Assembly (NCBI GenBank): GCA_000004985.1
Contig: GG738903.1
Origin: Naegleria gruberi
Lineage: Eukaryota
Strand: one strand, 5' to 3'
DNA length: 64,000 nt
The translations under genes were made by a program, and so were the position numbers. Below are positions 2,962 to 62,000 of the stretch, piece after piece (position 1 is the stretch's first letter; every line of letters begins with the position of its first letter). The notes below the pieces were generated by a model that saw only the letters and a program-made list of their open reading frames with translations, was not told where the DNA came from and did no database searches.

Positions 2962-3334
2962 CTTGTTTTTTTTTATATTTGAGTTTCGTATCTCTTTTGG
3001 ATTCAATTGACCTATATACAAATATCTCTAATTGGTTGAATATCAACAACAAGCGTGATCTTTCTTTACATGCAATGATGGAGTTGTTCTGTAATTCTAA
3101 ATATCTTGTTCGGTCAATTTGTCAACCTGTCATATTAAATTATCTCTTTAAATCATAAACAATTTAATCTTTTCAAATAGTTTTACATTCGGTATTAAAG
3201 TTTTCAATTCTTTCAATTCAACCTTACTTTCGGCCACAATCTCAATCGAAGCAAATGTTTTAATTGTCTTGGCCAATTCAATGCCCAACTCTGAAACATT
3301 ATCCAGAGGTCAATTGGGTGTGATGCCAATAGAT

Positions 3335-42200: not shown

Positions 42201-45200
42201 ATGTTATACTACATTCAAGTCTTGTATTAATACTACTTCAACTGCTGTTCCATGGTGTAAATCTGCATGTCAAATCATGTATACTCAAGCTAGTACTATT
42301 GCTAATTTTAGTTATCCAATGAATGCTACATGTGACTCATTCCCTGACTCCAACTGTAACTACGGTGTCTACCTTCCTTCCACTACCACTTGTTTTGGTA
42401 AATCAATTAAGGATGCTACTGTATGTTCAGGAAAAGGATCATGTATTTCTCAAGATACTTGTAATTGTGCAAATGGTTATTCTGGAAGCAATTGTGAAAA
42501 GGCAGTTTGTTTCTCAAAGATTAGTTCTGATTCATCAGTTTGTTCAGGAAGAGGTTCATGTGTTGCTCCAAATAGTTGTACATGTAAAACAGGATACACA
42601 GGAGAAAAATGTGAACTTCCAACATGTAATGGTAAGAGTGATGTTTTGGGTGGTTGTTCATTCCGTGGATCTTGTAATACTACTGATTCTTGTATCTGTA
42701 ATGGTAATTTTGATTCATCAACATTCTGTTCTAAATGTAAGAGTGGTTATGTTGGATCAAATTGTGATGTTCCAGTATGTTTCTTAATTTCTGCCACTGA
42801 TAGTACTGTTTGTGGAGGTCAAGGTTCTTGCATTAGTCCAAACACTTGTAAATGTAAATCAGGATATTCAGGCACTGCTTGTCAAACCTTCTCTTGTTAT
42901 GGTATTTCAAAGACTGACAGTAATGTCTGTGGTGGAAGTACAAGAGGTTCATGTATTGGTCCAGACAATTGTAAATGTGTTACCAATTGGAACAATAAGA
43001 ATAATACTTGTACTAGTTGCAGTCCTGCATACACTGGTTCTTCATGTACTACTCCAGTTTGTAGTGCAACTGATACATGTAATTCTCATGGTACTTGTGA
43101 TTCTAATTTCAAGTGTGTCTGTACTGGTAATTTCATTGGTGATTATTGTTCATCATGTGCCACTGGATTTGTTGGTGCAAATTGTGATATTTCTTGCTCA
43201 GCTGCCAAGACATGTAATTCACACGGTTCATGTACCAATACTGGTTCTTGTACTTGTAATGGTAATTTTGATCCTTCTTTCAATTGTGCATCTGCTAAAT
43301 GTCTTAATGGTTTCTTGGGTGATGGATGTAATTACAAGGTTGATACATCTTCTTTCAAGTTCAATGCTAATGGTGATAGAATTACTGCTACCATTTATAA
43401 TGCTGTCAAGACTCAAGTTGCCTGTTCTCAAATTATTTCATCTCTCTCCAAGCTTGGTACTGGTCCAATTTGTAACATGGATGGTAAATCATCTATTGAA
43501 ATTATTTTAGGTGTTGGTGCTACCATTGTTACTGGTGATTCATTAACTCTTTATTCATTGATTGGTGACTCTAGCTCAACTGTTAATGCTGTTGTTTCTG
43601 CTGGTGAATTTGTTGCTTTAGCACCAACTTCTGCATTGACTTCTGACAAGTCTCTTGTTTCCCAATGTGATGTTTTGAATTTGAATGCATTTGATTCTGT
43701 TTCTCTTGATCGTCGTCCTCTTACATTCTCTTGGACTTGTACTGCTGGTCCATCATCAGATGATCAAACCAAATTGAATTCTTTAATTTCCTCTACTACA
43801 TTGAGTGGTATCNNNNNNNNNNNNNNNNNNNNNNNNNNNNNNNNNNNNNNNNNNNNNNNNNNATTGCTCAAGCAGCTCCAACTCTTTCAATTAAGGAAGG
43901 TACTTCTGTTAAATTCCTCATTGGAACTACAAGTCTCATTACACCAGTAATTTCATTCCCAACTTGTTATACTGGTACAGGTGCTACAACTTATACATTT
44001 ACACTTGATGGATCTGTTTCAAAGGTTTCATCCTTATCAGTTTCTACCAAGAATAACTTGTTGGTCCTTGGTTCTAGTTTTACCAATATTAATCAAGAAG
44101 GTGATTATTACTTTATTGTAACTGCATCTGCTGATAGTGCTCAAGCAGTTAGTACAACTGTTAAAGTTAGTGCTGTTGCTCAACCTATTTCAGTTGCATT
44201 CAGTGTTCCAGATATGACTCAATCTAAGGATGACCCAGTTGCCTTCTCTATTTCTGTTACTGATCCAAGTAATACTCAAGATACATTGACTCTCTCAACA
44301 ACATGTATTGATTCAACTGGTACTTCTTGTTCTAATCCAGGTTCTGCTTCATCATTCAGTTCTTCATTCGCAGCTGGTACTTATATCTTTACTACCACTG
44401 CTACTAAGGGTTCAAGAACTTCAAGTGCCAAATTGACAATTACAGTTCTCGATACTTCAAAGAGTTTAATTGTCAGAGTTTCAATTACTTCCAATGTTGA
44501 TTTGACAACTGTTGATCCAACAAAGGACTTGTATTTGACCTATAATACTTTGGATTCCTTGTCTGCTCCAACATTCTCTTGGACCTCTGCTACTGGTGAT
44601 GTTTCTTCAAGTTCTCTTCTCATCATTCCAAGCTCTAATCTTGTTCCTGGTTCTTCCTATGTTGTTTCTTTATCAGTTGTTGATGGTGCTAAATCCGGTA
44701 CTGCATCTGTCACAATTACAGTCAACTCTCCTCCAACAGTTGGTGTCTTTGAAGTTTATCCAACTAGTGGTGTTGCTTTGAGTGATTCATTCAGTCTCAA
44801 GTGTGGTAATGGTTGGTCTGATCCACAAACTCCATTATCATTCCAATTCTTCTTCTATGATTCTGTATCTATGAAGTGGAATTCACTCACTGAAAAGTCT
44901 CAACAACAAAGTGCCAACATTCAACTTCCATCACCAAGTTCAGGTTCAACATTGACTATTAAGGCTGTTGTTTATGATGCTTTGGGAGCTTCTTCTGAAT
45001 CTAGAACAAATATTACCATTACTCAACCAAGTAATGCCGACGTTGCAAGTACTTTAACTTCAATGGCAAAGGGTACTAATACTGTTACCTTGTCTGGTGT
45101 TAGTGCTGCAATGTTTGTTATTGGTGCTGTTAGTAATCCAACTGATGCTGAAAAGGCAGCCATTCAACAAGCTTCTACTGCACTTGCCAATTCATTCTTA

Positions 45201-46151
45201 TTACAACAAGCTCAAAGTGCTGCTGTTACATCACTTTCTTCATCAGCAGCTGAAAGTAGTATCTCCTTCTCAAGCTCTGTTGCTGGTTCAGTTTCAAAGG
45301 GTCTCTTTGCTGATTCAACAACTTCTCAAGTTATTTCAAGCTTGTCAAATACTACATCTTCTGTAACATCAAGTTCTTCTGTTAGTCTTTCTGATGATGC
45401 TATTGCAAGTACTTTGGCAACTGCTAATAATTTCCTTGCCTACATCAAGTCCAAATTATCAAAGAGATCTTTCAGTTCTGCTGATCTTACTAATTTGAAT
45501 GCTGTCTTTGCAAGTGTTGCTTCTATCAAGACTAAGAATGTTGTTCCTGATGCACCAGCTGCTACTGTAACTGCCAATGGTGTCACAACTTCTTCTCGTA
45601 AGGTCAATCTTGCTTCTTTGAATTCTATGGCTCAAAATACTACAGGAAAGGATCAAATCAAGTTCAAGAATAATATTGCCGCATTGACTGCCTTTGCTAA
45701 TGCCAAATCTGTTAGTGTTACAGTCAAGACAACTAGTACATCTGTTACTAATGCTGTCACCAATGCCATGACATTCTCATTTGCTGATGGAACTAGTTCT
45801 GCAACTATTTCAGTTTCTAGCTCTTCTCCAATTGCTGATTTGGTATTTGGTACAACCAAGAGTTTGACAAGATCAATCACTGCAACCCAAGTCATCTGTA
45901 AATCTGTCGATTCAAGTGGTGCTGCTTCAGATGCTTCAGGATGTACTGTTGTAATTGGAAGTGATGGTACTGCCACAGCAACTGTTTCAAGTACTGGTAC
46001 TTATTTGTTGACTCAACAAACAATTACTGCTACATCGAGTGGTAAAACTGTTACTCCTAAACCTTCAAAGCTCAGTAGTGCTCCAGCAAGTACTTTCTCA
46101 ATGATGTTGACTCTTTTCATTGCTGCTATTACATTGATTATTTTACAATAG
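39211..46151 (+). CDS. Giant cell-surface protein, over 2300 aa. It has a signal peptide, EGF-like cysteine repeats, two Frizzled-type CRD-like modules, a tandem NGT sequon array, an S/T-rich stalk and a GPI-anchor-like C-terminus. It spans a 50-N gap.
   Basis: ATG at 39211. Signal/anchor 'VTVCMLVTLVILSILASNTNA'. Repeats of the form CxCxxG(Y/F)xGxxC. Two CRD-like modules with '...CRLAYKRYACYSQFPICSANTYMPVCNGAC' and '...CLIHIKRYACYTTFKSCIN...PWCKSAC'. 'NGTNNGTINNNGTINNNGT...' lies at about 41098..41295. The frame that is open from the gap edge (43863) runs to 46151 and ends 'STFSMMLTLFIAAITLIILQ'. Continuity across the gap is assumed. Confidence 0.65.
43813..43862. other. Assembly gap (50 N) inside the giant surface-protein gene
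   Basis: A run of N characters. Confidence 1.
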
Positions 46152-46289: not shown

Positions 46290-48209
46290 ATGAAAACGCT
46301 TGTCAACAAGGTTCTCTCATCATCGATTATTACTGCTTCTCGAAGATCCTCATCATCATTATCATCTCTCAATAATGGTTCTATTCTTATTGGTGGATTG
46401 AATAATTCCGTACCACTGATCAATGTCTTTGGAAAACATCATCAATTAAACTTTTCAATAATGGAAAATGCAAATGGAAGAAATTATCATGCAACAAGTA
46501 AAATGTTGAAAAAGGCTAAACAACAAGCACCAGAGACAACAGTTTATTCCGAACAAGAACAGAATGAATTGATCAAAAATTATATAGAACTTGAGGACAA
46601 ATTTAAGAAATTAACTGAAAATATTATTGAATATCGTAGAAATCATCCTACTCCTGTTCAATTATTGGAAACTAATCACTTATTTGTTCAAGTTTGTGAT
46701 TTAGTTAATTTTTGTTACAAAACCTTTCCAAAAACTAATGATCCAGTTAATATGCAAGTTAGATACTTCAAATCAAATGTTGGTATGAAGTTATATGTCT
46801 TGATGAAGAAGGTTGAATTGTTAATGTTAAAGATTGTGAATCAGGAATGGTTCCCAGTTGAAACAATCAGAACTCAATTCAATGAGGAAAATATCATGCA
46901 ATCCCTTCCTACTGTTTATCATGTTGCTACACCTGTTGACGATACACTCTTCTTGTTTGCTGCTTATGAGGCAGCACTTTCTTATGCAGCTTTCATTCCA
47001 AACATGAGAGATATTGTGAGACCAACCACAAAAGAAAATCTAATTGCTGCAGCTTTATTCTTGTTTAATAGATTGAAGGATTTCCCAATTTTGAATGATG
47101 GTATTCGAAATTATGCAGATATGGTCTTTTCAGATTATGAAGCAGCCAAATTGGCCTACACTACTGCAAAGCCAATTGAAAATGAACCAGATTTCCATTA
47201 TAATGCTGATAAGAATGCTTATTCTTACTTGGGAAAGACATTTACAGAGCACGAGTTTGATTGGTTCGAAGATATTGAAACAAATATTCCAATTCATCTT
47301 GGAAACTTTATCAAAGCTTTGAAGGTTGCTGCTTATGATGGTGATAGAAAGCAAAGTATGGATGTTTTGGATGAATGTATCAAAACTGATCCAAATAATA
47401 TTTATATTCACTATTTGAAGGCATCTCGTTTGGACATTCTCACTGATTCAGAGCCAGACCTCAATATTGCTCACAATAATTACTCAAATGCCATTCATCA
47501 TTTGGAGATGGCATTGGCCTATCTTGCAAAAACTCCAAAGTTGCCACTCCCTACTCTTGCAAAGACCAATTTTTCACCTGACATTGAAGTACCAGAAAAA
47601 CAGGTTGAAAGAATTAACGATCTCAAATTCTCACCAATTAGTTTGATATTGGCCAGCATGTATGCAAGAGCTGCTGAATCTGGAGTTTCAATAGATTTGA
47701 GACACATTTATGGTGCAAAGGGGGTCGATTTTGTCAGACAAGCTGAATTATATTCGAGATCACCTAATGGACCATATTTTTATATGATTAAGGGAGCTTG
47801 CTATTATGATTGTGACATGTATGAATTGTCAATCAATGCCTATTCTTCTGTTGAAAGATTTGAAGCAGTTTTGGATCCAAGTTTTATTATTGACTCTCTT
47901 TGTTATGCTTCTCAGGGAATGATTGCTCTTGGATATGCTGATAAGTGTTTAGAAGTAATGGACTTTTATATTGAAAAATATAATGATGCAAGATTAGTTT
48001 GCCAAAAGATTCTCTGTAAAGATTACTTGTGTAGATCAAAGGATGAATTGAGACAGGTTTTGAAAGAATTCGAACAATTAAAGGAGAGCATTCAAGATTT
48101 GAAACTCACTGATCCATACGTTTTTTCAAAAGTTAACATGCATACCAATACAAGAATTAATGAAATTTTGATAGCTATCAACAATCCACAAGTTGCTGAA
48201 TGTTGGTAA
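46290..48209 (+). CDS. Hypothetical protein, 639 aa, with an S/R-rich N-terminus that may be an organellar presequence and helical-repeat character
   Basis: ATG at 46290 (aaaaaaATG). Uninterrupted ORF. N-terminal 'MKTLVNKVLSSSIITASRRSSSSLSSLNNGS'. No domain recognised by eye. Confidence 0.55.
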   Translation: MKTLVNKVLSSSIITASRRSSSSLSSLNNGSILIGGLNNSVPLINVFGKHHQLNFSIMENANGRNYHATSKMLKKAKQQAPETTVYSEQEQNELIKNYIELEDKFKKLTENIIEYRRNHPTPVQLLETNHLFVQVCDLVNFCYKTFPKTNDPVNMQVRYFKSNVGMKLYVLMKKVELLMLKIVNQEWFPVETIRTQFNEENIMQSLPTVYHVATPVDDTLFLFAAYEAALSYAAFIPNMRDIVRPTTKENLIAAALFLFNRLKDFPILNDGIRNYADMVFSDYEAAKLAYTTAKPIENEPDFHYNADKNAYSYLGKTFTEHEFDWFEDIETNIPIHLGNFIKALKVAAYDGDRKQSMDVLDECIKTDPNNIYIHYLKASRLDILTDSEPDLNIAHNNYSNAIHHLEMALAYLAKTPKLPLPTLAKTNFSPDIEVPEKQVERINDLKFSPISLILASMYARAAESGVSIDLRHIYGAKGVDFVRQAELYSRSPNGPYFYMIKGACYYDCDMYELSINAYSSVERFEAVLDPSFIIDSLCYASQGMIALGYADKCLEVMDFYIEKYNDARLVCQKILCKDYLCRSKDELRQVLKEFEQLKESIQDLKLTDPYVFSKVNMHTNTRINEILIAINNPQVAECW

Positions 48210-49986
48210 TTAAACTAAGAATCCATCTTCAGTGTTTGAGTGAACCTCGGATACCTCTTACTCCAATCTCTTATTGATTCAAGATTTTTCTTATTACACT
48301 TGATTGAAGTGGGAATTTCCAGACTTCTTTTTCAAGGTAGTTCAACTCCAGCTATTTTGATATGAGCTGATGAAATACCTTCTATCTCAATTAATTTGTC
48401 AGATATTGAAGTAATAAATTGTATAGAGAGAGAATATATCACTGGGAATCTATCTTTTTCTAATGAATGTTTCTCATCCCTTGTTCGTTGAATATAATAG
48501 TAAAGTATCACAAATATTAAAAGAAAAATATCCAATAGTGAAAATTACAGGAAAAGATAATTATCTGGTGGAGAATGGATGAATTACATACTATTCGTGA
48601 TGTTTCAGTGAGAAGTCAATATCTACTACCACATCATGAGAAAAACAATAAAAATACATTGTTAAAAACGAAATAAACCCGTTTTAAAAAATTATTCGGT
48701 AATATTCGGTAGCATTCTTCCATGCAAAAACAGAACTTGGAAAAATATTTCAAAAATATTGGAACAACATCAGGTACATCACGACTCTGTTGATTCTTGG
48801 AGTAATTTCACATCTATTAACTCCAAGAATTTCACCACATCATCTCATCATGATTTAAATAATAGTATTAATAGTAATTTTTGGAATTTAATTCTTCATC
48901 ATATGATTTGGAAATAATTTTATTATTTGGAAAAATTCAAGTTGGCACCAACCATCATCGGAACTACTACCAACCATCATCATTGTTATTTATCATCATT
49001 ATAATAGTAATATTTGCGGAAATAAATCTGATAATAGTAATATTTTAGTGAAATTTAATATTTTCACTAAAATCATCATCACTGCCCGATTTATATGATA
49101 ATTTGGAAAACTTTTAATCTAGTATTGTTCAGCATGGTCGATTCCATCAGGTAAAATCACTTCCGAACATTTCCCTATTGTTTATCATGATGATAGGTAC
49201 ATGTATATTTTCAACATGTACATGCCATATCTCAACATGTACTTCACCAACTTGGAAAATGTCTTTCATCACTACTATTCAAATACATAATAAACAATAT
49301 ATTTATTATCAGATTTTCATCATTTTGTGTTTTTGGCAACTTCGGGCTATTCATGGTCCCAATCATGATTCATGCCAAAAGTACAGTCAATCTTCTTGAA
49401 ACATTAATAAACTTTTATTAGTACTATTGTAGATGTACCATATCAATTATTTCGTCTTGTTTCGTTGAAATCATGAAGATTTTGATTTTTCTGTTTTTAA
49501 TTAAATTTCACAACACATACACCATATTTGTTGATGTAAACTAGACAAGTTACATGTAAATAATCCATTGTTGATTCTCTAATCATATTTTATTGTGTTT
49601 TTGTGTATCTAGGTTTTTGAAATCTTGCAAATTATTCTGCGGTTATTCTTCATATAAATATGATTCCTCACTTCATGATATGAGGAGGGATTGATATCAT
49701 GATTGTTTGAAAGTGTTGTACAAATTTTGGACACTCCCTGAATTGAAATCAGGAAGAAAGAGTCAAATCTTTAACACCATATAAAATATGACTTTTGACG
49801 ATGGTTTTGGTCTGCCTGGAACAAACACGAAAATATCAGATATCCATGATGCTTGACAAGACTCGAAATTATACATTCAATAACATAATAAACATATGAA
49901 TAGTTTTATTATTATTGTTTGATTTGTAATTGGGCTACTCTGGTAGCATGAAATATCGGAACTTGGTAAATTGACAACACGACGAA

Positions 49987-50375
49987 AATCTGATAAATAT
50001 GATGTTTATTATCTATTTAAATAGTAGTACTTAAAGACACGATTCAAGTTGGTGAAGTAACTTGACCAAAATTGATAAGAGAAAGTTCTCTTACCTACTA
50101 TTGACCATTCCGAACAATACTACATTGACAGTTTTCCAACTTGTTCAGTAGATCCAGCAGTGATGATGAATTTAGTGAAAATTTTGACATTTCACCAAAA
50201 TTACATTACTAAAAATTAATTTCCACAAATACTATTATTATTGATGGAAAACAATGATGATGGTGGTGAATGATCCGATGATGAAACACCAAATTGTGAT
50301 TTTCCATCATGAAAAATAAATTTCAAGACGATAATCCATGATGATGTGTAAAACCACTCAGAAAATCATCTCAAT
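49987..50375. repeat. Dispersed non-coding repeat, copy 2 (about 0.39 kb). It is the same family as 37876..38400.
   Basis: See copy 1. Identity is roughly 85-90% over the aligned blocks. It lacks the two insertions present in copy 1. Confidence 0.65.
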
Positions 50376-50863
50376 ATTCCTTTGATAATTTTTCAATCAC
50401 TCTTGAGGAGTGAATCAAAAAGGTTTGGTTTGGAAAATTACCTATCCCTATCAAGTTTAAAACCAACTTGAAAAATTATACTCCAAACATTAATTTCTAT
50501 TTCAGAGCCATTTTCTGCCAATACTTTGCATATCATCTCCACATCCTTCTCATAATCTTTTCAAAGTAGCATTTTAGAGTTTGGAATTGATTACATTGAA
50601 ATGCAGCATTGAGTATTTCCTCATCTAGTTTCATTTCATTTGATAGACACGTGAGAATTTATCCTGTTCGAAACTTAACAAACCTTGCATTCAAAAATCA
50701 ACCTCTGAAAATTGTTTTTTGGAATTGACATTCCAAATAGATCTATAACTTGAAGTTTGGCGTGTAATTGACCGCTACTTTATGTGAGATTCCTCTACGC
50801 GAACTATCGTCGATGATTCTAGCTCATTACCTTTCAATATGTCATTCGGTTAAATGAATAATA

Positions 50864-52022
50864 CGAGAAACCATGACATAAATTTTTCGATGGATTTTTT
50901 TTACCCATCGATGATTGATCGAGATGGAAAATGATCGATTGAATGGATGAAACATAGAATTTTATCAATTAATTGATCGATCAATCGATCGATCGATCAA
51001 TGTTTTCATCAGATATCTCGAAATCCTCATTGAACTGAGCTTGAGACTTTGATTTTGATGATTTCTTTTGTTCTTCCAGTTCAGGTTTGATTTTTTTCTT
51101 GCCTTTTTGACTTTTTGAGAGTTGTTTTTTGGTTTTTCAATTATTTTTTTAGAGTCACAGATTTCATTCTCCCTTACTTATTTCACTAAGCTTCGAAATG
51201 GCTTCTCCAAATTGCTCCTTTTTTCATTTTAAATCAACCCTTGGTTAGATGTCAGTACAGAGTGCCTTGAAAATCACCTTATTGGTATTACTGAATTCCA
51301 TATCAAGCTGGGATGGCATCGGAACGATTCATTAAGTTTGAATGTTTTAATTTCTTTACAATGTGGATCTTCTACTACATCAAATGAGTTTCTCAAGTAC
51401 TTGACATGATAAAATACAACACTTGAAAAAAGGTTTCCAGTATTGAGTGCCTTAATTAATGACAAAGGGTGAGAATGAAAGCAAACTTGATAAAATGGTC
51501 TTTGAACAAAACCACATGTTCAGGAGCAACAACGTCCAAACTTGTGTAAGCAATCATTTAATCAAGAACCAACACTCTTATGTAATATTGCAATATCCAC
51601 ATCCCAAATTAAAATCAAGAGTGAGCACTTGACATATTCGTGGAAAAAGGTTGGGAGCAACCTTCTGTCACTGAGCTCAGAAAGGATTATAAGAAATTTA
51701 TATTCAAATGCCACATCGGAGGAGATTGGCTTCTAACATGATTTTAAGCACTTAGAAAACCAACTTTTTGTGTTTTAAGTTCTTTATTTTGAAACATCAT
51801 AAGAAATCAAACAACATCTTTTGATAATTAGCTGAAGGTTGAGCCTTTTCAAATAACATCAAGTCTTTATTCAATATGATTGAAATTGTTGATAAATCAT
51901 GATCGATTGTTTGATAGATTGATCAAAAAACAGATTGAATAGATGGATTTTAATCGATCAACATGGATGAGATGGAAAAAAGATTGGTGTTGAGGTGAAA
52001 AAATTTATGTCATGGTTTCTGG
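50864..52022. mobile_element. Candidate non-autonomous DNA transposon / MITE-like element of about 1.16 kb with roughly 23-bp terminal inverted repeats and subterminal GATC/ATCGAT-rich repeats
   Basis: Left end 50866..50887 'agaaaccatgacataaattttt' is the exact reverse complement of 51999..52020 'aaaaatttatgtcatggtttct'. The next flanking base also matches. Both subterminal regions carry 'gatcgatt', 'gattgaat(g/a)gatgg' and 'atcgat' motifs. An (ATCG)n tract lies at 50980..51000. It contains only small ORFs (63-64 aa). Its right end is 26 bp upstream of the ATG at 52048. Confidence 0.4.
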
Positions 52023-52047
52023 AAAACTACAATAGTCAGACAAAAAA

Positions 52048-54099
52048 ATGGCTAAATTTCACATTTGTTTGTTCACACTAATGTTGCTGTTACTAATTTC
52101 TTGTTCAACAGTGGCTGGAATTTCGTCTGGGCTTTTGTCAAAGGTGAAGGATGGTGATTGTGTGGTTGGGGTGAGAACGTTTCTGATAATGTTTGTGTGG
52201 AAACATAAATTTTCAAACGAAACTTTGACGAAACTGATTACTGCTAAAGATAATGATTCCAGAAGAAAGTATTTGGTCGAAAATTTGCAGGAGAGAGGTT
52301 TAACTATCGGTACCATACGCGACTATACTCCTTTTCTTTCAAATTATTTCAAATATTCTAATCTTTCGCTTTCTCATGGCCTTTCGAATAGCATACTATC
52401 ATCTAGCTATTTTTCCATTTACCCACAAGTTGACATGTGTCAAAGAAGAGATTATTTTACGAGATATGATGCCTTTTTGTTAGATCCCTATGACTTTGCT
52501 TATTACGTCAGGTTTTACAGAGATCTTGGGATGACATCTGGCATGTTCATGAATAGTGATGACTTTGTAGCTGTACCACTCATTCCCTTCGAAGTCTACA
52601 CTCAAACTACAAGAAATCAAGTTTCCTCCTTATTTGATTTGAATGTTGCAAGCTGTGATGCAAAACCTGATATTTCTGATGCGCAGTTTTTGAGAAGGTT
52701 GACAGGTTATGCTAATTTTTCACAGCAAGATGTTGAAATAATTGGTAATGTTACTGGTAAATCACAAATTTATGGAAATTGGACACTTGTGAATAACTTT
52801 CTAAATATGGAGATGACAGAACTTACCATAAATGAAACATGGCAAGAATTACTACCTTCCACATGCTACATGTGTTCAACAGATGGTTGTTATGGTGAAA
52901 ATTTCAGGCCTGATCTTGATCTTTTCTTCATTCCACAGTTAGTAATTATAGTAATTTACTTTTTATTACTTTTTGGGTTGAAAATTTACAAAAAACCTTC
53001 AATGAAACGAAGAATTGGAATTCCCTATACTCCGATTCTTATCTTGGTTGTCATGATTACCTTTGCCGGAGTTTCTAGAACTTGTGTTGGCGTTTGGTAT
53101 AGTGCATGTTTGTTTTGTTTGTTTTGGTGGATATTGATCTATATCAGTACAATTATTCGATTCTACTATTTGCGTAATTTGTATGCTCTCATAGTGATGT
53201 TTCCAAATAGAGAAAAGATGTTGAAAATGTTAGCTTCTCAGAAAGTTGGAATACTCATGACAGTTATGTTGACTTTTGTCATTTCACAAATATTGAATCT
53301 AGTGAGTGTTTACTTTTTTGTAAATGAAGATAAGGCTGCCACTGATTTTTATAGACCCATTATTGGTATCATTATTTTATTATCGTTGTGGGTCTTTGGT
53401 GGTTGTTGCTTTTTATTAGATTTGTTTCTTCAGAGAAAAACTATTCGACAGGGTGGTATTCGAAAGTTTTTCTTCTTTGATGATCCATTCTACTTGAGAA
53501 TAGACTTGATTTCTACCATATTACCTGTCATTATTGCGATACTTACAGGAATTGAGGCAACCTCAAATGAAGTTGTTGATGGTCTTGCAGGAGTTTCCAA
53601 TACTTTACTTTGTTTTAGTTTCGTTCAGATTAGTGGGGGAAATGTGCTAATGATTGAGATTTTCAAAAGGGTAAAAAGAAGAAAGGAATCTTCGCAATTG
53701 ACATGGGATCAAGAATTAACAAATACAGATTTACTCCAAATTTTAAAGGAGTATTGCGAAAAGGAGTTTAGTTCAGAGAATTACGAATTTTATATTAAGT
53801 TGAAATCACTCCAGAATAGAAAGTTTATCAAGTTGAAGGAACTGCAAAAAATTGAAGCTGAATTTATTCGAAACTATTCAAAATACGAAGTGAATATTCC
53901 ATCTTCATGCAAAAAGACTTTTTATGAACTTTTAAACAAATGCCAAGAAGAAACTCAATTAGAATTTCAATTAATTTGGGATTGTGTTGCTCCAGAATTA
54001 TTACTCAACCTTCAAGATACCTTCAGTCGATTACAAGATACCTCAATATATGCCAAATGGCTTTCAGTCCAATCTTTGAAAGAAAATAATAATGTTTAG
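52048..54099 (+). CDS. 7TM receptor with a C-terminal RGS domain, 683 aa. It has a signal peptide and an ectodomain of about 270 aa.
   Basis: ATG at 52048 (aaaaaaATG). Signal 'MAKFHICLFTLMLLLLISCSTVAG'. Seven hydrophobic helices between about aa 290 and 520. C-terminal RGS 'LLQILKEYCEKEFSSENYEFYIKLKSLQN...YSKYEVNIPSSCKKTFYELL'. Confidence 0.75.
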   Translation: MAKFHICLFTLMLLLLISCSTVAGISSGLLSKVKDGDCVVGVRTFLIMFVWKHKFSNETLTKLITAKDNDSRRKYLVENLQERGLTIGTIRDYTPFLSNYFKYSNLSLSHGLSNSILSSSYFSIYPQVDMCQRRDYFTRYDAFLLDPYDFAYYVRFYRDLGMTSGMFMNSDDFVAVPLIPFEVYTQTTRNQVSSLFDLNVASCDAKPDISDAQFLRRLTGYANFSQQDVEIIGNVTGKSQIYGNWTLVNNFLNMEMTELTINETWQELLPSTCYMCSTDGCYGENFRPDLDLFFIPQLVIIVIYFLLLFGLKIYKKPSMKRRIGIPYTPILILVVMITFAGVSRTCVGVWYSACLFCLFWWILIYISTIIRFYYLRNLYALIVMFPNREKMLKMLASQKVGILMTVMLTFVISQILNLVSVYFFVNEDKAATDFYRPIIGIIILLSLWVFGGCCFLLDLFLQRKTIRQGGIRKFFFFDDPFYLRIDLISTILPVIIAILTGIEATSNEVVDGLAGVSNTLLCFSFVQISGGNVLMIEIFKRVKRRKESSQLTWDQELTNTDLLQILKEYCEKEFSSENYEFYIKLKSLQNRKFIKLKELQKIEAEFIRNYSKYEVNIPSSCKKTFYELLNKCQEETQLEFQLIWDCVAPELLLNLQDTFSRLQDTSIYAKWLSVQSLKENNNV

Positions 54100-54244: not shown

Positions 54245-57200
54245 NNNNNNNNNNNNNNNNNNNNNNNNNNNNNNNNNNNNNNNNNNNNNNNNNNNNNNNN
54301 NNNNNNNNNNNNNNNNNNNNNNNNNNNNNNNNNNNNNNNNNNNNNNNNNNNNNNNNNNNNNNNNNNNNNNNNNNNNNNNNNNNNNNNNNNNNNNNNNNNN
54401 NNNNNNNNNNNNNNNNNNNNNNNNNNNNNNNNNNNNNNNNNNNNNNNNNNNNNNNNNNNNNNNNNNNNNNNNNNNNNNNNNNNNNNNNNNNNNNNNNNNN
54501 NNNNNNNNNNNNNNNNNNNNNNNNNNNNNNNNNNNNNNNNNNNNNNNNNNNNNNNNNNNNNNNNNNNNNNNNNNNNNNNNNNNNNNNNNNNNNNNNNNNN
54601 NNNNNNNNNNNNNNNNNNNNNNNNNNNNNNNNNNNNNNNNNNNNNNNNNNNNNNNNNNNNNNNNNNNNNNNNNNNNNNNNNNNNNNNNNNNNNNNNNNNN
54701 NNNNNNNNNNNNNNNNNNNNNNNNNNNNNNNNNNNNNNNNNNNNNNNNNNNNNNNNNNNNNNNNNNNNNNNNNNNNNNNNNNNNNNNNNNNNNNNNNNNN
54801 NNNNNNNNNNNNNNNNNNNNNNNNNNNNNNNNNNNNNNNNNNNNNNNNNNNNNNNNNNNNNNNNNNNNNNNNNNNNNNNNNNNNNNNNNNNNNNNNNNNN
54901 NNNNNNNNNNNNNNNNNNNNNNNNNNNNNNNNNNNNNNNNNNNNNNNNNNNNNNNNNNNNNNNNNNNNNNNNNNNNNNNNNNNNNNNNNNNNNNNNNNNN
55001 NNNNNNNNNNNNNNNNNNNNNNNNNNNNNNNNNNNNNNNNNNNNNNNNNNNNNNNNNNNNNNNNNNNNNNNNNNNNNNNNNNNNNNNNNNNNNNNNNNNN
55101 NNNNNNNNNNNNNNNNNNNNNNNNNNNNNNNNNNNNNNNNNNNNNNNNNNNNNNNNNNNNNNNNNNNNNNNNNNNNNNNNNNNNNNNNNNNNNNNNNNNN
55201 NNNNNNNNNNNNNNNNNNNNNNNNNNNNNNNNNNNNNNNNNNNNNNNNNNNNNNNNNNNNNNNNNNNNNNNNNNNNNNNNNNNNNNNNNNNNNNNNNNNN
55301 NNNNNNNNNNNNNNNNNNNNNNNNNNNNNNNNNNNNNNNNNNNNNNNNNNNNNNNNNNNNNNNNNNNNNNNNNNNNNNNNNNNNNNNNNNNNNNNNNNNN
55401 NNNNNNNNNNNNNNNNNNNNNNNNNNNNNNNNNNNNNNNNNNNNNNNNNNNNNNNNNNNNNNNNNNNNNNNNNNNNNNNNNNNNNNNNNNNNNNNNNNNN
55501 NNNNNNNNNNNNNNNNNNNNNNNNNNNNNNNNNNNNNNNNNNNNNNNNNNNNNNNNNNNNNNNNNNNNNNNNNNNNNNNNNNNNNNNNNNNNNNNNNNNN
55601 NNNNNNNNNNNNNNNNNNNNNNNNNNNNNNNNNNNNNNNNNNNNNNNNNNNNNNNNNNNNNNNNNNNNNNNNNNNNNNNNNNNNNNNNNNNNNNNNNNNN
55701 NNNNNNNNNNNNNNNNNNNNNNNNNNNNNNNNNNNNNNNNNNNNNNNNNNNNNNNNNNNNNNNNNNNNNNNNNNNNNNNNNNNNNNNNNNNNNNNNNNNN
55801 NNNNNNNNNNNNNNNNNNNNNNNNNNNNNNNNNNNNNNNNNNNNNNNNNNNNNNNNNNNNNNNNNNNNNNNNNNNNNNNNNNNNNNNNNNNNNNNNNNNN
55901 NNNNNNNNNNNNNNNNNNNNNNNNNNNNNNNNNNNNNNNNNNNNNNNNNNNNNNNNNNNNNNNNNNNNNNNNNNNNNNNNNNNNNNNNNNNNNNNNNNNN
56001 NNNNNNNNNNNNNNNNNNNNNNNNNNNNNNNNNNNNNNNNNNNNNNNNNNNNNNNNNNNNNNNNNNNNNNNNNNNNNNNNNNNNNNNNNNNNNNNNNNNN
56101 NNNNNNNNNNNNNNNNNNNNNNNNNNNNNNNNNNNNNNNNNNNNNNNNNNNNNNNNNNNNNNNNNNNNNNNNNNNNNNNNNNNNNNNNNNNNNNNNNNNN
56201 NNNNNNNNNNNNNNNNNNNNNNNNNNNNNNNNNNNNNNNNNNNNNNNNNNNNNNNNNNNNNNNNNNNNNNNNNNNNNNNNNNNNNNNNNNNNNNNNNNNN
56301 NNNNNNNNNNNNNNNNNNNNNNNNNNNNNNNNNNNNNNNNNNNNNNNNNNNNNNNNNNNNNNNNNNNNNNNNNNNNNNNNNNNNNNNNNNNNNNNNNNNN
56401 NNNNNNNNNNNNNNNNNNNNNNNNNNNNNNNNNNNNNNNNNNNNNNNNNNNNNNNNNNNNNNNNNNNNNNNNNNNNNNNNNNNNNNNNNNNNNNNNNNNN
56501 NNNNNNNNNNNNNNNNNNNNNNNNNNNNNNNNNNNNNNNNNNNNNNNNNNNNNNNNNNNNNNNNNNNNNNNNNNNNNNNNNNNNNNNNNNNNNNNNNNNN
56601 NNNNNNNNNNNNNNNNNNNNNNNNNNNNNNNNNNNNNNNNNNNNNNNNNNNNNNNNNNNNNNNNNNNNNNNNNNNNNNNNNNNNNNNNNNNNNNNNNNNN
56701 NNNNNNNNNNNNNNNNNNNNNNNNNNNNNNNNNNNNNNNNNNNNNNNNNNNNNNNNNNNNNNNNNNNNNNNNNNNNNNNNNNNNNNNNNNNNNNNNNNNN
56801 NNNNNNNNNNNNNNNNNNNNNNNNNNNNNNNNNNNNNNNNNNNNNNNNNNNNNNNNNNNNNNNNNNNNNNNNNNNNNNNNNNNNNNNNNNNNNNNNNNNN
56901 NNNNNNNNNNNNNNNNNNNNNNNNNNNNNNNNNNNNNNNNNNNNNNNNNNNNNNNNNNNNNNNNNNNNNNNNNNNNNNNNNNNNNNNNNNNNNNNNNNNN
57001 NNNNNNNNNNNNNNNNNNNNNNNNNNNNNNNNNNNNNNNNNNNNNNNNNNNNNNNNNNNNNNNNNNNNNNNNNNNNNNNNNNNNNNNNNNNNNNNNNNNN
57101 NNNNNNNNNNNNNNNNNNNNNNNNNNNNNNNNNNNNNNNNNNNNNNNNNNNNNNNNNNNNNNNNNNNNNNNNNNNNNNNNNNNNNNNNNNNNNNNNNNNN

Positions 57201-58238
57201 NNNNNNNNNNNNNNNNNNNNNNNNNNNNNNNNNNNNNNNNNNNNNNNNNNNNNNNNNNNNNNNNNNNNNNNNNNNNNNNNNNNNNNNNNNNNNNNNNNNN
57301 NNNNNNNNNNNNNNNNNNNNNNNNNNNNNNNNNNNNNNNNNNNNNNNNNNNNNNNNNNNNNNNNNNNNNNNNNNNNNNNNNNNNNNNNNNNNNNNNNNNN
57401 NNNNNNNNNNNNNNNNNNNNNNNNNNNNNNNNNNNNNNNNNNNNNNNNNNNNNNNNNNNNNNNNNNNNNNNNNNNNNNNNNNNNNNNNNNNNNNNNNNNN
57501 NNNNNNNNNNNNNNNNNNNNNNNNNNNNNNNNNNNNNNNNNNNNNNNNNNNNNNNNNNNNNNNNNNNNNNNNNNNNNNNNNNNNNNNNNNNNNNNNNNNN
57601 NNNNNNNNNNNNNNNNNNNNNNNNNNNNNNNNNNNNNNNNNNNNNNNNNNNNNNNNNNNNNNNNNNNNNNNNNNNNNNNNNNNNNNNNNNNNNNNNNNNN
57701 NNNNNNNNNNNNNNNNNNNNNNNNNNNNNNNNNNNNNNNNNNNNNNNNNNNNNNNNNNNNNNNNNNNNNNNNNNNNNNNNNNNNNNNNNNNNNNNNNNNN
57801 NNNNNNNNNNNNNNNNNNNNNNNNNNNNNNNNNNNNNNNNNNNNNNNNNNNNNNNNNNNNNNNNNNNNNNNNNNNNNNNNNNNNNNNNNNNNNNNNNNNN
57901 NNNNNNNNNNNNNNNNNNNNNNNNNNNNNNNNNNNNNNNNNNNNNNNNNNNNNNNNNNNNNNNNNNNNNNNNNNNNNNNNNNNNNNNNNNNNNNNNNNNN
58001 NNNNNNNNNNNNNNNNNNNNNNNNNNNNNNNNNNNNNNNNNNNNNNNNNNNNNNNNNNNNNNNNNNNNNNNNNNNNNNNNNNNNNNNNNNNNNNNNNNNN
58101 NNNNNNNNNNNNNNNNNNNNNNNNNNNNNNNNNNNNNNNNNNNNNNNNNNNNNNNNNNNNNNNNNNNNNNNNNNNNNNNNNNNNNNNNNNNNNNNNNNNN
58201 NNNNNNNNNNNNNNNNNNNNNNNNNNNNNNNNNNNNNN
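54245..58238. other. Assembly gap (3994 N)
   Basis: A run of N characters. The ORFs reported across it are artefacts. Confidence 1.
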
Positions 58239-58747
58239 ATTAGTAAGGTCCTGTATCAATTTCATGAGGATCTGTATTGTGGATGTAATTGTCACATCCC
58301 TGTAGGTGTCAAGTAGATCAGCCATGTACCATGTATGATATGGATGATCTTCAAAATCATATAGATATATTTAATTATCATGTATAGATGTATTAGAAGT
58401 GAATTGAAGTGGTATAGATTTCTATCTTCAATGTTAGAACAGGTTAGTTGACAAGTTGAATATTAAATATCCTGAAATGATACCAAAGTATATGAAATTG
58501 ATATATATTGTTATTAACATTATTTATAAGATGATATATTGATTTGAAATGATTTAGAAATGTTTTCATTGATATTCTAATTGTCTAATCTATTATATGA
58601 AATTAACTTATATAAGTCATTATAATGATGTAATATTATGTTATAATATGATTATATATTCAATTTGGAGTAAATTGATATATAATATATTGATTTATAA
58701 TGAGTATTTATTGAGATAATGAATTAAGATGAATAAAAGTCAAAATG

Positions 58748-59083
58748 TTGGGTCTGGCCTTAGTCGTGGGTTTGGGTTTGGTTAGGTTGGGTTTGGGTGT
58801 TGGTTGGGGTTTGGGTGTTGGTTGGGGTTGGGTTTGGGTTTGGGTTTGGGTTTGGGTTTGGGTTTGGGTTTGGGTTTGGGTTTGGGTTTGGGTTTGGGTT
58901 TGGGTTTGGGTTTGGGTTTGGGTTTGGGTTTGGGTTTGGGTTTGGGTTTGGGTTTGGGTTTGGGTTTGGGTTTGGGTTTGGGTTTGGGTTTGGGTTTGGG
59001 TTTGGGTTTGGGTTTGGGTTTGGGTTTGGGTTTGGGTTTGGGTTTGGGTTTGGGTTTGGGTTTGGGTTTGGGTTTGGGTTTGG
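58748..59083 (+). repeat. Telomere-type (GGGTTT)n array, with the G-rich strand on the plus strand. Its proximal edge is degenerate and it runs into a gap.
   Basis: It begins with degenerate units 'gggtctggccttagtcgtgggtttgggtttggttaggttgggtttgggtgttggttgggg', then about 45 perfect GGGTTT units up to the N run. Confidence 0.85.
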
Positions 59084-62000
59084 NNNNNNNNNNNNNNNNN
59101 NNNNNNNNNNNNNNNNNNNNNNNNNNNNNNNNNNNNNNNNNNNNNNNNNNNNNNNNNNNNNNNNNNNNNNNNNNNNNNNNNNNNNNNNNNNNNNNNNNNN
59201 NNNNNNNNNNNNNNNNNNNNNNNNNNNNNNNNNNNNNNNNNNNNNNNNNNNNNNNNNNNNNNNNNNNNNNNNNNNNNNNNNNNNNNNNNNNNNNNNNNNN
59301 NNNNNNNNNNNNNNNNNNNNNNNNNNNNNNNNNNNNNNNNNNNNNNNNNNNNNNNNNNNNNNNNNNNNNNNNNNNNNNNNNNNNNNNNNNNNNNNNNNNN
59401 NNNNNNNNNNNNNNNNNNNNNNNNNNNNNNNNNNNNNNNNNNNNNNNNNNNNNNNNNNNNNNNNNNNNNNNNNNNNNNNNNNNNNNNNNNNNNNNNNNNN
59501 NNNNNNNNNNNNNNNNNNNNNNNNNNNNNNNNNNNNNNNNNNNNNNNNNNNNNNNNNNNNNNNNNNNNNNNNNNNNNNNNNNNNNNNNNNNNNNNNNNNN
59601 NNNNNNNNNNNNNNNNNNNNNNNNNNNNNNNNNNNNNNNNNNNNNNNNNNNNNNNNNNNNNNNNNNNNNNNNNNNNNNNNNNNNNNNNNNNNNNNNNNNN
59701 NNNNNNNNNNNNNNNNNNNNNNNNNNNNNNNNNNNNNNNNNNNNNNNNNNNNNNNNNNNNNNNNNNNNNNNNNNNNNNNNNNNNNNNNNNNNNNNNNNNN
59801 NNNNNNNNNNNNNNNNNNNNNNNNNNNNNNNNNNNNNNNNNNNNNNNNNNNNNNNNNNNNNNNNNNNNNNNNNNNNNNNNNNNNNNNNNNNNNNNNNNNN
59901 NNNNNNNNNNNNNNNNNNNNNNNNNNNNNNNNNNNNNNNNNNNNNNNNNNNNNNNNNNNNNNNNNNNNNNNNNNNNNNNNNNNNNNNNNNNNNNNNNNNN
60001 NNNNNNNNNNNNNNNNNNNNNNNNNNNNNNNNNNNNNNNNNNNNNNNNNNNNNNNNNNNNNNNNNNNNNNNNNNNNNNNNNNNNNNNNNNNNNNNNNNNN
60101 NNNNNNNNNNNNNNNNNNNNNNNNNNNNNNNNNNNNNNNNNNNNNNNNNNNNNNNNNNNNNNNNNNNNNNNNNNNNNNNNNNNNNNNNNNNNNNNNNNNN
60201 NNNNNNNNNNNNNNNNNNNNNNNNNNNNNNNNNNNNNNNNNNNNNNNNNNNNNNNNNNNNNNNNNNNNNNNNNNNNNNNNNNNNNNNNNNNNNNNNNNNN
60301 NNNNNNNNNNNNNNNNNNNNNNNNNNNNNNNNNNNNNNNNNNNNNNNNNNNNNNNNNNNNNNNNNNNNNNNNNNNNNNNNNNNNNNNNNNNNNNNNNNNN
60401 NNNNNNNNNNNNNNNNNNNNNNNNNNNNNNNNNNNNNNNNNNNNNNNNNNNNNNNNNNNNNNNNNNNNNNNNNNNNNNNNNNNNNNNNNNNNNNNNNNNN
60501 NNNNNNNNNNNNNNNNNNNNNNNNNNNNNNNNNNNNNNNNNNNNNNNNNNNNNNNNNNNNNNNNNNNNNNNNNNNNNNNNNNNNNNNNNNNNNNNNNNNN
60601 NNNNNNNNNNNNNNNNNNNNNNNNNNNNNNNNNNNNNNNNNNNNNNNNNNNNNNNNNNNNNNNNNNNNNNNNNNNNNNNNNNNNNNNNNNNNNNNNNNNN
60701 NNNNNNNNNNNNNNNNNNNNNNNNNNNNNNNNNNNNNNNNNNNNNNNNNNNNNNNNNNNNNNNNNNNNNNNNNNNNNNNNNNNNNNNNNNNNNNNNNNNN
60801 NNNNNNNNNNNNNNNNNNNNNNNNNNNNNNNNNNNNNNNNNNNNNNNNNNNNNNNNNNNNNNNNNNNNNNNNNNNNNNNNNNNNNNNNNNNNNNNNNNNN
60901 NNNNNNNNNNNNNNNNNNNNNNNNNNNNNNNNNNNNNNNNNNNNNNNNNNNNNNNNNNNNNNNNNNNNNNNNNNNNNNNNNNNNNNNNNNNNNNNNNNNN
61001 NNNNNNNNNNNNNNNNNNNNNNNNNNNNNNNNNNNNNNNNNNNNNNNNNNNNNNNNNNNNNNNNNNNNNNNNNNNNNNNNNNNNNNNNNNNNNNNNNNNN
61101 NNNNNNNNNNNNNNNNNNNNNNNNNNNNNNNNNNNNNNNNNNNNNNNNNNNNNNNNNNNNNNNNNNNNNNNNNNNNNNNNNNNNNNNNNNNNNNNNNNNN
61201 NNNNNNNNNNNNNNNNNNNNNNNNNNNNNNNNNNNNNNNNNNNNNNNNNNNNNNNNNNNNNNNNNNNNNNNNNNNNNNNNNNNNNNNNNNNNNNNNNNNN
61301 NNNNNNNNNNNNNNNNNNNNNNNNNNNNNNNNNNNNNNNNNNNNNNNNNNNNNNNNNNNNNNNNNNNNNNNNNNNNNNNNNNNNNNNNNNNNNNNNNNNN
61401 NNNNNNNNNNNNNNNNNNNNNNNNNNNNNNNNNNNNNNNNNNNNNNNNNNNNNNNNNNNNNNNNNNNNNNNNNNNNNNNNNNNNNNNNNNNNNNNNNNNN
61501 NNNNNNNNNNNNNNNNNNNNNNNNNNNNNNNNNNNNNNNNNNNNNNNNNNNNNNNNNNNNNNNNNNNNNNNNNNNNNNNNNNNNNNNNNNNNNNNNNNNN
61601 NNNNNNNNNNNNNNNNNNNNNNNNNNNNNNNNNNNNNNNNNNNNNNNNNNNNNNNNNNNNNNNNNNNNNNNNNNNNNNNNNNNNNNNNNNNNNNNNNNNN
61701 NNNNNNNNNNNNNNNNNNNNNNNNNNNNNNNNNNNNNNNNNNNNNNNNNNNNNNNNNNNNNNNNNNNNNNNNNNNNNNNNNNNNNNNNNNNNNNNNNNNN
61801 NNNNNNNNNNNNNNNNNNNNNNNNNNNNNNNNNNNNNNNNNNNNNNNNNNNNNNNNNNNNNNNNNNNNNNNNNNNNNNNNNNNNNNNNNNNNNNNNNNNN
61901 NNNNNNNNNNNNNNNNNNNNNNNNNNNNNNNNNNNNNNNNNNNNNNNNNNNNNNNNNNNNNNNNNNNNNNNNNNNNNNNNNNNNNNNNNNNNNNNNNNNN

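What the first reader, a model, noticed from the sequence alone, without database searches (positions are those of the whole stretch)
50864..52022. TIR-flanked element of about 1.16 kb abutting the start of the 7TM-RGS gene
A segment of 22-24 bp at 50864..50887 is the perfect reverse complement of 51999..52022. Both subterminal regions are full of GATC/ATCGAT-type palindromes and shared short motifs. That structure is typical of a MITE or non-autonomous DNA transposon. The element carries no long ORF. Its right terminus ends 26 bp before the ATG of the receptor gene at 52048, so it may have been co-opted as a promoter or 5' UTR. Alternatively the inverted repeats are a regulatory palindrome and not a transposon. 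The surrounding 3.8 kb intergenic island (48210..52047) is several times longer than other spacers here, and it also holds a copy of the dispersed repeat.
Basis: seen in the sequence. Interest (0 to 1): 0.5.

Follow-up and report, generated by a model that had tools for sequence, protein, structure and literature searches.

The report
Unverified transposon-like segment upstream of receptor gene
A 1.15-kb non-coding stretch bounded by a perfect 22-bp inverted repeat sits just before a receptor gene near a chromosome end of the amoeba Naegleria gruberi; it looks like a relic of a cut-and-paste transposon, but it lacks a clean target-site duplication and no second copy could be found or looked for in the rest of the genome.

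Summary
It is the only perfect inverted repeat of 16 bp or more in 54 kb, and simulations never exceed 18 bp. Both subterminal ~100-115 bp are dense (GATN)n-like arrays, and the interior is non-coding. The right arm ends 27 nt before the ATG of NAEGRDRAFT_73295, a 7TM-RGS gene of Naegleria gruberi. The 3.8-kb spacer is the longest in the window and also holds two inverted copies of a separate ~500-bp dispersed repeat.

The transposon reading is plausible but unproven. There is no perfect target-site duplication. The best candidate is 9 bp with 7/9 matches (empirical p about 0.06). The asymmetric subterminal motifs lie in direct, not inverted, orientation. There is no second copy or solo terminus in the window. 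No protein, Pfam or Rfam homology was found. Exact-terminus scans of metagenomes, viral contigs and prokaryotic genomes gave only chance bacterial hits.

Best guess (about 0.45) is a non-autonomous TIR DNA-transposon relic whose right end now lies in the promoter position. Interest is low.

The parts
50866..50887 (+). Left terminal inverted repeat, AGAAACCATGACATAAATTTTT
   Evidence: Exact reverse complement of 51999-52020. No other perfect inverted repeat in the window reaches 16 bp.
51999..52020 (-). Right terminal inverted repeat (same 22-mer on the minus strand). It ends 27 nt before the ATG at 52048.
50888..51001 (.). Left subterminal array of degenerate (GATN)n / ATCGAT / GATGGA / GATTGA motifs, including a (GATC)6 core at 50975-50998
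   Evidence: Motif counts. Tandem Repeats Finder rows at 50964-51001. Local inverted similarity to the right end scores 37 against 17.6 +/- 2.7 for shuffles; the direct orientation scores 28.
51897..51990 (.). Right subterminal array of the same motifs. The asymmetric motifs GATGGA, ATGGAT and GATTGA are on the + strand here as at the left end, so they are in direct orientation.
   Evidence: 13 plus-strand motif hits in the element (GATGGA 4, ATGGAT 4, GATTGA 5, some overlapping) against 1 hit of the two reverse complements counted (TCAATC 1, ATCCAT 0).
51002..51896 (.). Unique AT-rich interior, non-coding, with no homologue found
   Evidence: Six-frame translation. Codon-usage scan. Protein searches without hits. 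Rfam gave only a sub-threshold chance match. No other copy in the window.
50856..50864 (.). Left half of the only candidate target-site duplication (GAATAATAC), valid only if the element is 50865-52021
   Evidence: 7/9 identical to 52022-52030. 5.9% of random site pairs do as well, so it is not significant.
52022..52030 (.). Right half of the candidate target-site duplication (GAAAACTAC)
52021..52047 (+). 27-nt leader between the right arm and the start codon, ending in the A-run (ACAAAAAAATG) seen before about half of the other start codons in the window
52048..54099 (+). Flanking gene: 7TM-RGS protein NAEGRDRAFT_73295 of Naegleria gruberi (683 aa). Given as context; it is not part of the element.
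   Evidence: 100% identical to P0001. Pfam RGS at residues 557-642. The 92%-identical paralogue NAEGRDRAFT_81447 has the same N-terminus, which supports this ATG.

Best explanation
The segment 50866-52020 (1155 bp) is most likely a non-autonomous class II (terminal-inverted-repeat, cut-and-paste) DNA transposon, or the relic of one. It lies in a repeat-accumulating spacer near a telomere-like tract of Naegleria gruberi, directly upstream of the 7TM-RGS gene NAEGRDRAFT_73295.

Inferred mechanism: a transposase encoded elsewhere would bind the 22-bp termini, and perhaps the GATGGA / GATTGA / ATCGAT motif arrays inside them, then excise and reinsert the unit. Because the right arm ends 27 nt before the ATG, and same-strand upstream spacers in this window are only ~50-140 bp, the gene's core promoter or transcription start would now lie in the right end of the element or in the 27-nt leader.

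Shown here: the inverted repeat, the motif arrays, the non-coding interior and the position. Inferred only: mobility, transposase binding and promoter donation.
For: - The 22/22 inverted repeat is far beyond chance and unique in the window.
- Both ends carry ~100-115 bp arrays of the same short motifs at 5-6 times background density. This is the layout of the subterminal regions in hAT, CACTA, Mutator and P-type elements (general knowledge).
- The ends also show weak inverted similarity beyond the 22 bp (score 37 against a shuffle maximum of 29).
- The interior has no coding signal and no homologue.
- The host spacer is 3838 bp, against 20-1419 bp elsewhere. It also contains two inverted copies of another dispersed repeat. 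It lies a few kb, across an N gap, from (GGGTTT)n tracts.
- A borderline 9-bp flanking repeat exists (7/9, p about 0.06).
- Naegleria genomes are reported to contain DNA transposons: 1.25% in N. lovaniensis, with 5.1% total repeats in N. gruberi (PMC6125883). Classified and unclassified repeats are reported in N. gruberi (PMC12344493).
Against: - There is no perfect target-site duplication at any boundary offset. A copy young enough to keep 22/22 termini should still have one. If the 7/9 repeat were a decayed duplication, the arms should have decayed too.
- The asymmetric subterminal motifs are in direct orientation at the two ends: 13 plus-strand hits against 1 hit of the two reverse complements counted. 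This is not what a simple inverted duplication of ends predicts.
- There is no second copy, solo end or related terminus in the 56 kb of readable window.
- No copy turned up in metagenome, viral or prokaryotic collections; the four exact hits lie in AT-rich metagenome contigs (the two read are homologous, gene-like sequence) and in records titled as Prochlorococcus and Marinoscillum MAGs, and are chance matches.
- No transposase or recombinase gene is present in the window.
- Classified TE content of N. gruberi is reported as very low, 0.28% (bioRxiv 10.64898/2026.06.24.734286).
- At 1155 bp it exceeds the usual MITE size.
Confidence: 0.45

Rival explanations
1. It is a non-mobile rearrangement scar. 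The 22-bp inverted repeat would have arisen from a local inverted micro-duplication or a template switch during repair or replication near a chromosome end. Alternatively, the 1.1-kb segment was inverted or captured between two short homologies. The (GATN)n arrays would be decayed microsatellites and nothing transposes.
For: There is no target-site duplication. It is single-copy in everything searchable. The motif arrays are direct rather than inverted and look like degenerate tetranucleotide microsatellite. The neighbourhood is visibly rearranged: it has inverted copies of another repeat, N gaps, an internal (GGGTTT)n tract, and a 92% paralogue on the same scaffold.
Against: Clean 22-bp perfect arms placed exactly outside two similar motif arrays are not an expected product of random repair. 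Weak inverted similarity extends beyond the 22 bp, which suggests that longer structured ends existed originally.
Confidence: 0.2
2. It is a functional cis-element rather than a parasite. The two identical 22-bp sites in opposite orientation would bracket the upstream region of the receptor gene. They could act as paired protein-binding sites, for example for looping or insulation. More speculatively, they could be the crossover sites of a site-specific inversion that flips a promoter-bearing cassette, giving on/off switching of the 7TM-RGS gene.
For: The right arm sits 27 nt from the ATG, which is the geometry of invertible promoter switches. The arms are perfectly conserved while the sequence immediately inside them is only ~60-70% similar. 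No target duplication is needed under this model.
Against: No recombinase gene is nearby. The 22-mer, or its first 15 nt, does not recur upstream of any other gene in the window. No eukaryotic chromosomal promoter inversion with such short repeats is known to me. No data on orientation variants were available.
Confidence: 0.07
3. It is a chance inverted repeat in AT-rich, low-complexity spacer DNA.
For: The region is AT-rich (GC 0.31-0.33) and contains palindromic GATC-type repeats.
Against: 0 of 100 shuffles gave any match to the 22-mer at up to 3 mismatches. 0 of 60 Markov simulations gave a perfect inverted repeat longer than 18 bp. The 22-mer itself is not low-complexity.
Confidence: 0.01

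Closest known systems
Non-autonomous TIR elements with short termini plus subterminal motif clusters (Ds of the hAT superfamily, dSpm of CACTA, short-TIR MULEs)
   Same: It has short perfect terminal inverted repeats. About 100 bp at each end is packed with reiterated 6-7 bp motifs. The interior is non-coding and the size is about 1 kb. The position is next to a gene start.
   Different: No 8-bp (hAT), 3-bp (CACTA) or clean 9-11-bp (Mutator) target duplication is present. The terminal bases (A/G-AGAAACC) match neither the hAT YARNG nor the CACTA signature. The asymmetric motifs are all on one strand at both ends. No partner transposase and no second copy are known.
MITEs (Tourist/Stowaway-like miniature inverted-repeat elements)
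   Same: It is TIR-bounded, AT-rich, non-coding and close to a gene.
   Different: At 1155 bp it is longer than the usual limit of about 800 bp. There is no TA or TWA duplication. Multi-copy status, the defining property, is not demonstrated.
Foldback-type elements (Drosophila FB; recalled from memory as a lead only)
   Same: The ends are built of arrays of short reiterated motifs. The candidate target duplication is 9 bp long, the FB length.
   Different: FB arms are long inverted arrays. Here only 22 bp are cleanly inverted and the motif arrays are direct. The 9-bp repeat is only 7/9 and not significant.
Invertible promoter switches (bacterial fimS-type invertons; FLP/FRT of the yeast 2-micron plasmid)
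   Same: Short perfect inverted repeats bracket about 1 kb immediately upstream of a surface-receptor gene.
   Different: There is no adjacent recombinase and no evidence of two orientations. It is a eukaryotic chromosomal context for which I know no precedent.

Membership tests
Class II TIR DNA transposon (non-autonomous) | Terminal inverted repeats at both ends | tested here: met
   22/22 complementary arms at 50866-50887 and 51999-52020. Beyond chance.
Class II TIR DNA transposon (non-autonomous) | Target-site duplication of fixed length directly flanking the termini | tested here: not met
   No perfect direct repeat of 3 bp or more abuts symmetric boundaries within a few bases of the perfect arms. 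The best is 9 bp at 7/9 with boundaries 50865/52021. 5.9% of random site pairs do as well.
Class II TIR DNA transposon (non-autonomous) | Several copies in the genome sharing termini but with different flanks | tested here: inconclusive
   There is only one copy and no solo terminus in the 64-kb window. External scans gave chance bacterial hits only.
Class II TIR DNA transposon (non-autonomous) | Empty (unoccupied) site in a paralogue, allele or related strain | not testable with these tools
   The paralogue NAEGRDRAFT_81447 (92% identical, same scaffold) would be the natural comparison, but its DNA is not on record.
Class II TIR DNA transposon (non-autonomous) | An autonomous relative encoding a transposase with the same termini | not testable with these tools
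   No transposase domain was found in any long ORF of the window. The genome is not searchable.
MITE | Miniature size (roughly 50-800 bp) and no coding capacity | tested here: not met
   The length is 1155 bp. The non-coding part of the criterion is met.
hAT / Tc1-mariner / PIF-Harbinger / piggyBac superfamilies | Diagnostic duplication and terminal bases: 8 bp with YARNG (hAT), TA (Tc1-mariner), TWA (PIF-Harbinger), TTAA (piggyBac) | tested here: not met
   The flanks are ...GAATAATACG | AGAAACC...GGTTTCT | GGAAAACTAC... and none of these signatures abuts the termini.
Mutator-like element | 9-11 bp target duplication; usually long TIRs | tested here: inconclusive
   A 9-bp flanking repeat exists but is only 7/9 and p is about 0.06. 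The clean TIR is 22 bp, with weak similarity further in.
Invertible promoter switch | Inverted repeats bracketing a promoter next to the regulated gene, a cognate site-specific recombinase, and both orientations present in a population | tested here: inconclusive
   The geometry is met. No recombinase is present in the window. Orientation variants are not testable here.

The most novel reading that the evidence does not exclude
The 22-bp perfect inverted repeats would be crossover sites of a site-specific inversion that flips a ~1.1-kb promoter-bearing cassette directly upstream of a 7TM-RGS receptor gene near a chromosome end. That would be a eukaryotic chromosomal 'inverton' giving phase-variable receptor expression in Naegleria. 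Nothing found here excludes it: the geometry fits and no target duplication is required. Nothing positively supports it either: there is no recombinase nearby and no orientation data.
Probability: 0.03. Interest if true: 0.8.

Novelty: new member of a known kind. Interest (0 to 1): 0.2.

Why it matters
If it is confirmed as mobile, it would add an uncharacterised TIR element family to a genome reported as very poor in classified transposons. It would also be a concrete case of a transposon end sitting in the promoter position of a G-protein-signalling receptor that has a 92% paralogue, which is a convenient natural experiment on regulatory divergence after duplication. If it is single-copy, it is just a curiosity of a rearranged region near a chromosome end. 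Either way the biological stakes are modest.

Tried and rejected
- **Reaching N. gruberi DNA.** I used exact-protein look-ups of the window's 7TM-RGS protein, its database twin P0001, the 70% paralogue P0002 and the 92% paralogue P0009. None is on record, so no copy count or empty-site comparison was possible.
- **Exact scans for the terminus.** Metagenome contigs gave 2 hits. They are two homologous AT-rich contigs whose sequence around the match looks like part of a bacterial ATPase-type gene (read by eye, not searched), and L001 shares nothing beyond 23 bp with the window; L002 failed to load and was only read by eye. Viral contigs gave 0 hits. Prokaryotic genomes gave 2 hits, Prochlorococcus and Marinoscillum MAGs. 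All are chance matches.
- **Protein-level detection of other copies or a transposase remnant.** A 490-aa concatenate of the element's stop-free peptides against 5.8 billion proteins gave no hit. Pfam at E up to 10 gave nothing meaningful. An exhaustive HMMER search of the 81-aa longest stretch against 1.84 billion representatives gave no hit. The 152-codon minus-strand frame with only two stops (51277-51732) therefore remains an unsupported hint of a pseudogene.
- **Rfam on 48000-52200.** Only one sub-threshold chance match was found.
- **Single-strand DNA folding of both ends.** The z-scores ranged from -1.3 to +0.8, so there is no special hairpin.
- **Short JGI peptides.** The 43-48 aa peptides clustered with P0001 are unrelated sequences and are not fragments of this locus.
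- **Literature.** No description of a Naegleria MITE or TIR family, or of this gene, was found in the held library. The N. gruberi genome paper is not held.
- **Shared upstream promoter motif.** Apart from the A-run before the ATG, none was visible among 12 genes.

Full report
**Origin and setting.** The ORF at 52048-54099 is 100% identical over 683 aa to NAEGRDRAFT_73295 of Naegleria gruberi, on a 304,373-bp scaffold. It has a Pfam RGS domain at residues 557-642. The window is gene-dense, with long uninterrupted ORFs and about 33% G+C. It contains two long N runs (54245-58238 and 59084-62871) and two (GGGTTT)n tracts (58747-59083 and 63565-64000). The locus therefore probably lies close to a chromosome end, although the gaps make the exact distance uncertain.

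**Checking the observation.** The inverted repeat exists. 50866-50887 (AGAAACCATGACATAAATTTTT) is the exact reverse complement of 51999-52020, with 1111 nt between the arms.

The repeat is not a chance event. The 22-mer has no other match in the window at up to 3 mismatches, and none appeared in 100 shuffles. It is the only perfect inverted repeat of 16 bp or more with arms 50-3000 bp apart in the 54 kb before the gaps. In 60 second-order Markov simulations the longest such repeat was 13-18 bp.

The description of the subterminal regions is also right:
- GAT occurs 14 and 13 times in the ~120 bp inside each arm, against 2.3 expected.
- Eight of the window's 17 ATCGAT and all 5 GATCGAT lie there.
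- Tandem Repeats Finder reports a (GATC)6 core at 50975-50998.

The element has no ORF above 64 aa, and its longest stop-free stretch is 81 aa. A codon-usage log-likelihood trained on the window's genes is negative across the entire 48210-52047 island, with a mean of -4.45, against +4.5 and +10.7 for the two flanking genes.

The island is 3838 bp, whereas the other spacers between long ORFs are about 20-1419 bp. It also holds two inverted copies (48788-49314 on the minus strand, 49993-50326 on the plus strand) of a ~500-bp repeat whose third copy is at 37876-38389. That repeat is unrelated in sequence to the element under study.

**Anatomy in more detail.** Beyond the 22 bp the two ends keep weak inverted similarity. 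The local alignment score is 37, against 17.6 +/- 2.7 and a maximum of 29 for shuffles. Much of this rests on self-complementary GATC/ATCGAT runs.

The asymmetric motifs tell a different story. GATGGA, ATGGAT and GATTGA give 13 plus-strand hits in the element (some overlapping) and are found at both ends. Of the two reverse complements counted, TCAATC occurs once and ATCCAT not at all; TCCATC was not counted. Window-wide, GATTGA/TCAATC (34/31) and ATGGAT/ATCCAT (25/31) are balanced. The structure is therefore:
- a 22-bp terminal inverted repeat at each end;
- a direct (GATN)n-like array of ~115 bp on the left and ~95 bp on the right;
- a ~900-bp unique interior.

Neither end folds unusually as single-stranded DNA, and Rfam finds nothing above threshold.

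**Tests of mobility.** There is no perfect target-site duplication for any symmetric boundary shift near the arms. The best candidate appears if the element is taken as 50865-52021. Its flanks are then GAATAATAC and GAAAACTAC, which match at 7 of 9 positions. Applying the same scan to 5000 random site pairs gives an equally good pseudo-duplication in 5.9% of cases, so this is suggestive at most. It is also internally awkward. A duplication that has decayed by 2 of 9 positions should accompany arms that have decayed too, yet the arms are 22/22.

No second copy of the interior, no solo terminus and no relative of the first 15 nt of the arm occurs elsewhere in the window. That is weak evidence, because the window is about 0.15% of the genome.

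I could not reach the rest of the genome. The exact-protein look-up holds none of the four N. gruberi proteins I tried. Exact scans for the terminus returned the following:
- Metagenome contigs gave two hits. Both contigs are AT-rich and homologous to each other, and the sequence around the match looks like part of a bacterial ATPase-type gene (read by eye, not confirmed by a search). L001 shares only 23 bp with the window; L002 failed to load for that comparison and was only read by eye.
- Viral contigs gave none.
- Prokaryotic genomes gave two MAGs, Prochlorococcus and Marinoscillum.

For an AT-rich 22-mer in collections of this size, these are chance matches.

At protein level, three searches found nothing meaningful. 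A 490-aa concatenate of the element's stop-free peptides had no hit among 5.8 billion proteins. Pfam had nothing meaningful at E up to 10. An exhaustive HMMER search of the 81-aa stretch against 1.84 billion representatives also found nothing. No long ORF in the window has a transposase or recombinase domain.

**Relation to the gene.** The right arm ends 27 nt before the ATG. The 92%-identical paralogue NAEGRDRAFT_81447, on the same scaffold, starts with the same residues (MAK.HICLFTLML...), which supports this start codon. The leader ends in ACAAAAAAATG, and a similar A-run precedes about half of the other start codons examined.

Same-strand upstream spacers in the window are mostly 50-140 bp. 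Whatever serves as the core promoter of NAEGRDRAFT_73295 should therefore overlap the right end of the element, unless the 27-nt leader suffices or the gene is silent. This is inference from geometry. I had no transcript data, and no paper in the held library mentions the gene.

**Interpretation.** The combination of features is what a non-autonomous cut-and-paste element looks like: a unique, perfect, short terminal inverted repeat, motif-rich subterminal regions, a non-coding interior, and residence in an oversized repeat-bearing spacer near a telomere-like tract. It is also hard to produce otherwise. I therefore keep the transposon relic as the best explanation, at about 0.45.

Several points keep it from being more than a candidate: the missing duplication, the direct orientation of the asymmetric motifs, the lack of any second copy in what could be searched, and the reported low classified TE content of N. 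gruberi. That content is 0.28% in bioRxiv 10.64898/2026.06.24.734286, although total repeats are given as 5.1% in PMC6125883, and PMC12344493 notes that only a small fraction of repeats can be classified.

The main rival, at about 0.2, is a non-mobile rearrangement scar in an evidently rearranged region. A functional reading (paired binding sites, or an invertible promoter cassette) fits the geometry but has no positive support (about 0.07 overall, about 0.03 for inversion proper). Chance is excluded. The remaining probability is for things I cannot name.

**Classification.** It should not be filed as a MITE, because it is too long, multi-copy status is unshown and there is no duplication. It cannot be assigned to hAT, Tc1/mariner, PIF/Harbinger or piggyBac, whose diagnostic flanks are absent. 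A Mutator- or Foldback-like affinity (9-bp duplication, ends made of short reiterated motifs) is a lead from memory and rests on a non-significant 7/9 repeat.

**Verdict.** This is an ordinary kind of object, a putative unclassified TIR element or relic, whose decisive tests need the rest of the genome: genome-wide copy count, an empty site at the paralogue, strain polymorphism and transcription-start mapping. Interest is low (0.2).

Noticed in passing
window 58747-59083 and 63565-64000: There are long, nearly pure (GGGTTT)n tracts, one running to the end of the window and one internal, each adjacent to N runs (54245-58238, 59084-62871). They look like telomeric repeats of N. gruberi. A 2013 survey stated that no information on its telomeres was available (PMC3622300). 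The internal tract beside a gap suggests a scaffolding join or an interstitial telomeric array.
   Followed up: partly
window 37876-38389 (+), 48788-49314 (-), 49993-50326 (+): A ~500-bp dispersed repeat is present in three copies (71-95% identity). Two of the copies form an inverted pair about 680 bp apart inside the same 3.8-kb spacer (also seen as inverted pairs I1 and I2). It may itself be a long-TIR or foldback-like element. It is unrelated in sequence to the 22-bp-TIR segment.
   Followed up: partly
window 23377-31509 (-), 35263-36840 (+), 52048-54099 (+): Three genes with RGS domains lie within 31 kb. One is a 2710-aa protein with many teneurin-type EGF repeats plus RGS, one is a 525-aa RGS protein, and one is the 7TM-RGS gene. 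A further EGF-repeat protein is at 39211-43950 and a REJ-domain protein at 44058-46151. This is a local cluster of surface and G-protein-signalling genes.
   Followed up: no
outside the window (same 304,373-bp scaffold): NAEGRDRAFT_81447 (686 aa) is 92% identical to the 7TM-RGS protein over its full length. It is a recent duplicate whose upstream region would serve as the empty-site control.
   Followed up: partly
window 776-1676 and 1983-2870: These are tandem paralogous segments, about 68% identical over ~900 bp on the same strand. They are probably a diverged tandem gene duplicate (ORFs 655-1755 and 2476-3021, minus strand).
   Followed up: no
window 51277-51732 (-): One minus-strand frame runs for 152 codons with only two stops in AT-rich DNA, which may be the trace of a decayed ORF inside the element. 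Codon usage is not gene-like, and no homologue was found.
   Followed up: yes
window 28504-30141 and 20017-20715: There are internal tandem repeats within coding ORFs: EGF-repeat units in the 2710-aa gene, and short repeats in the 562-aa ORF, where G+C and skews are locally high.
   Followed up: no
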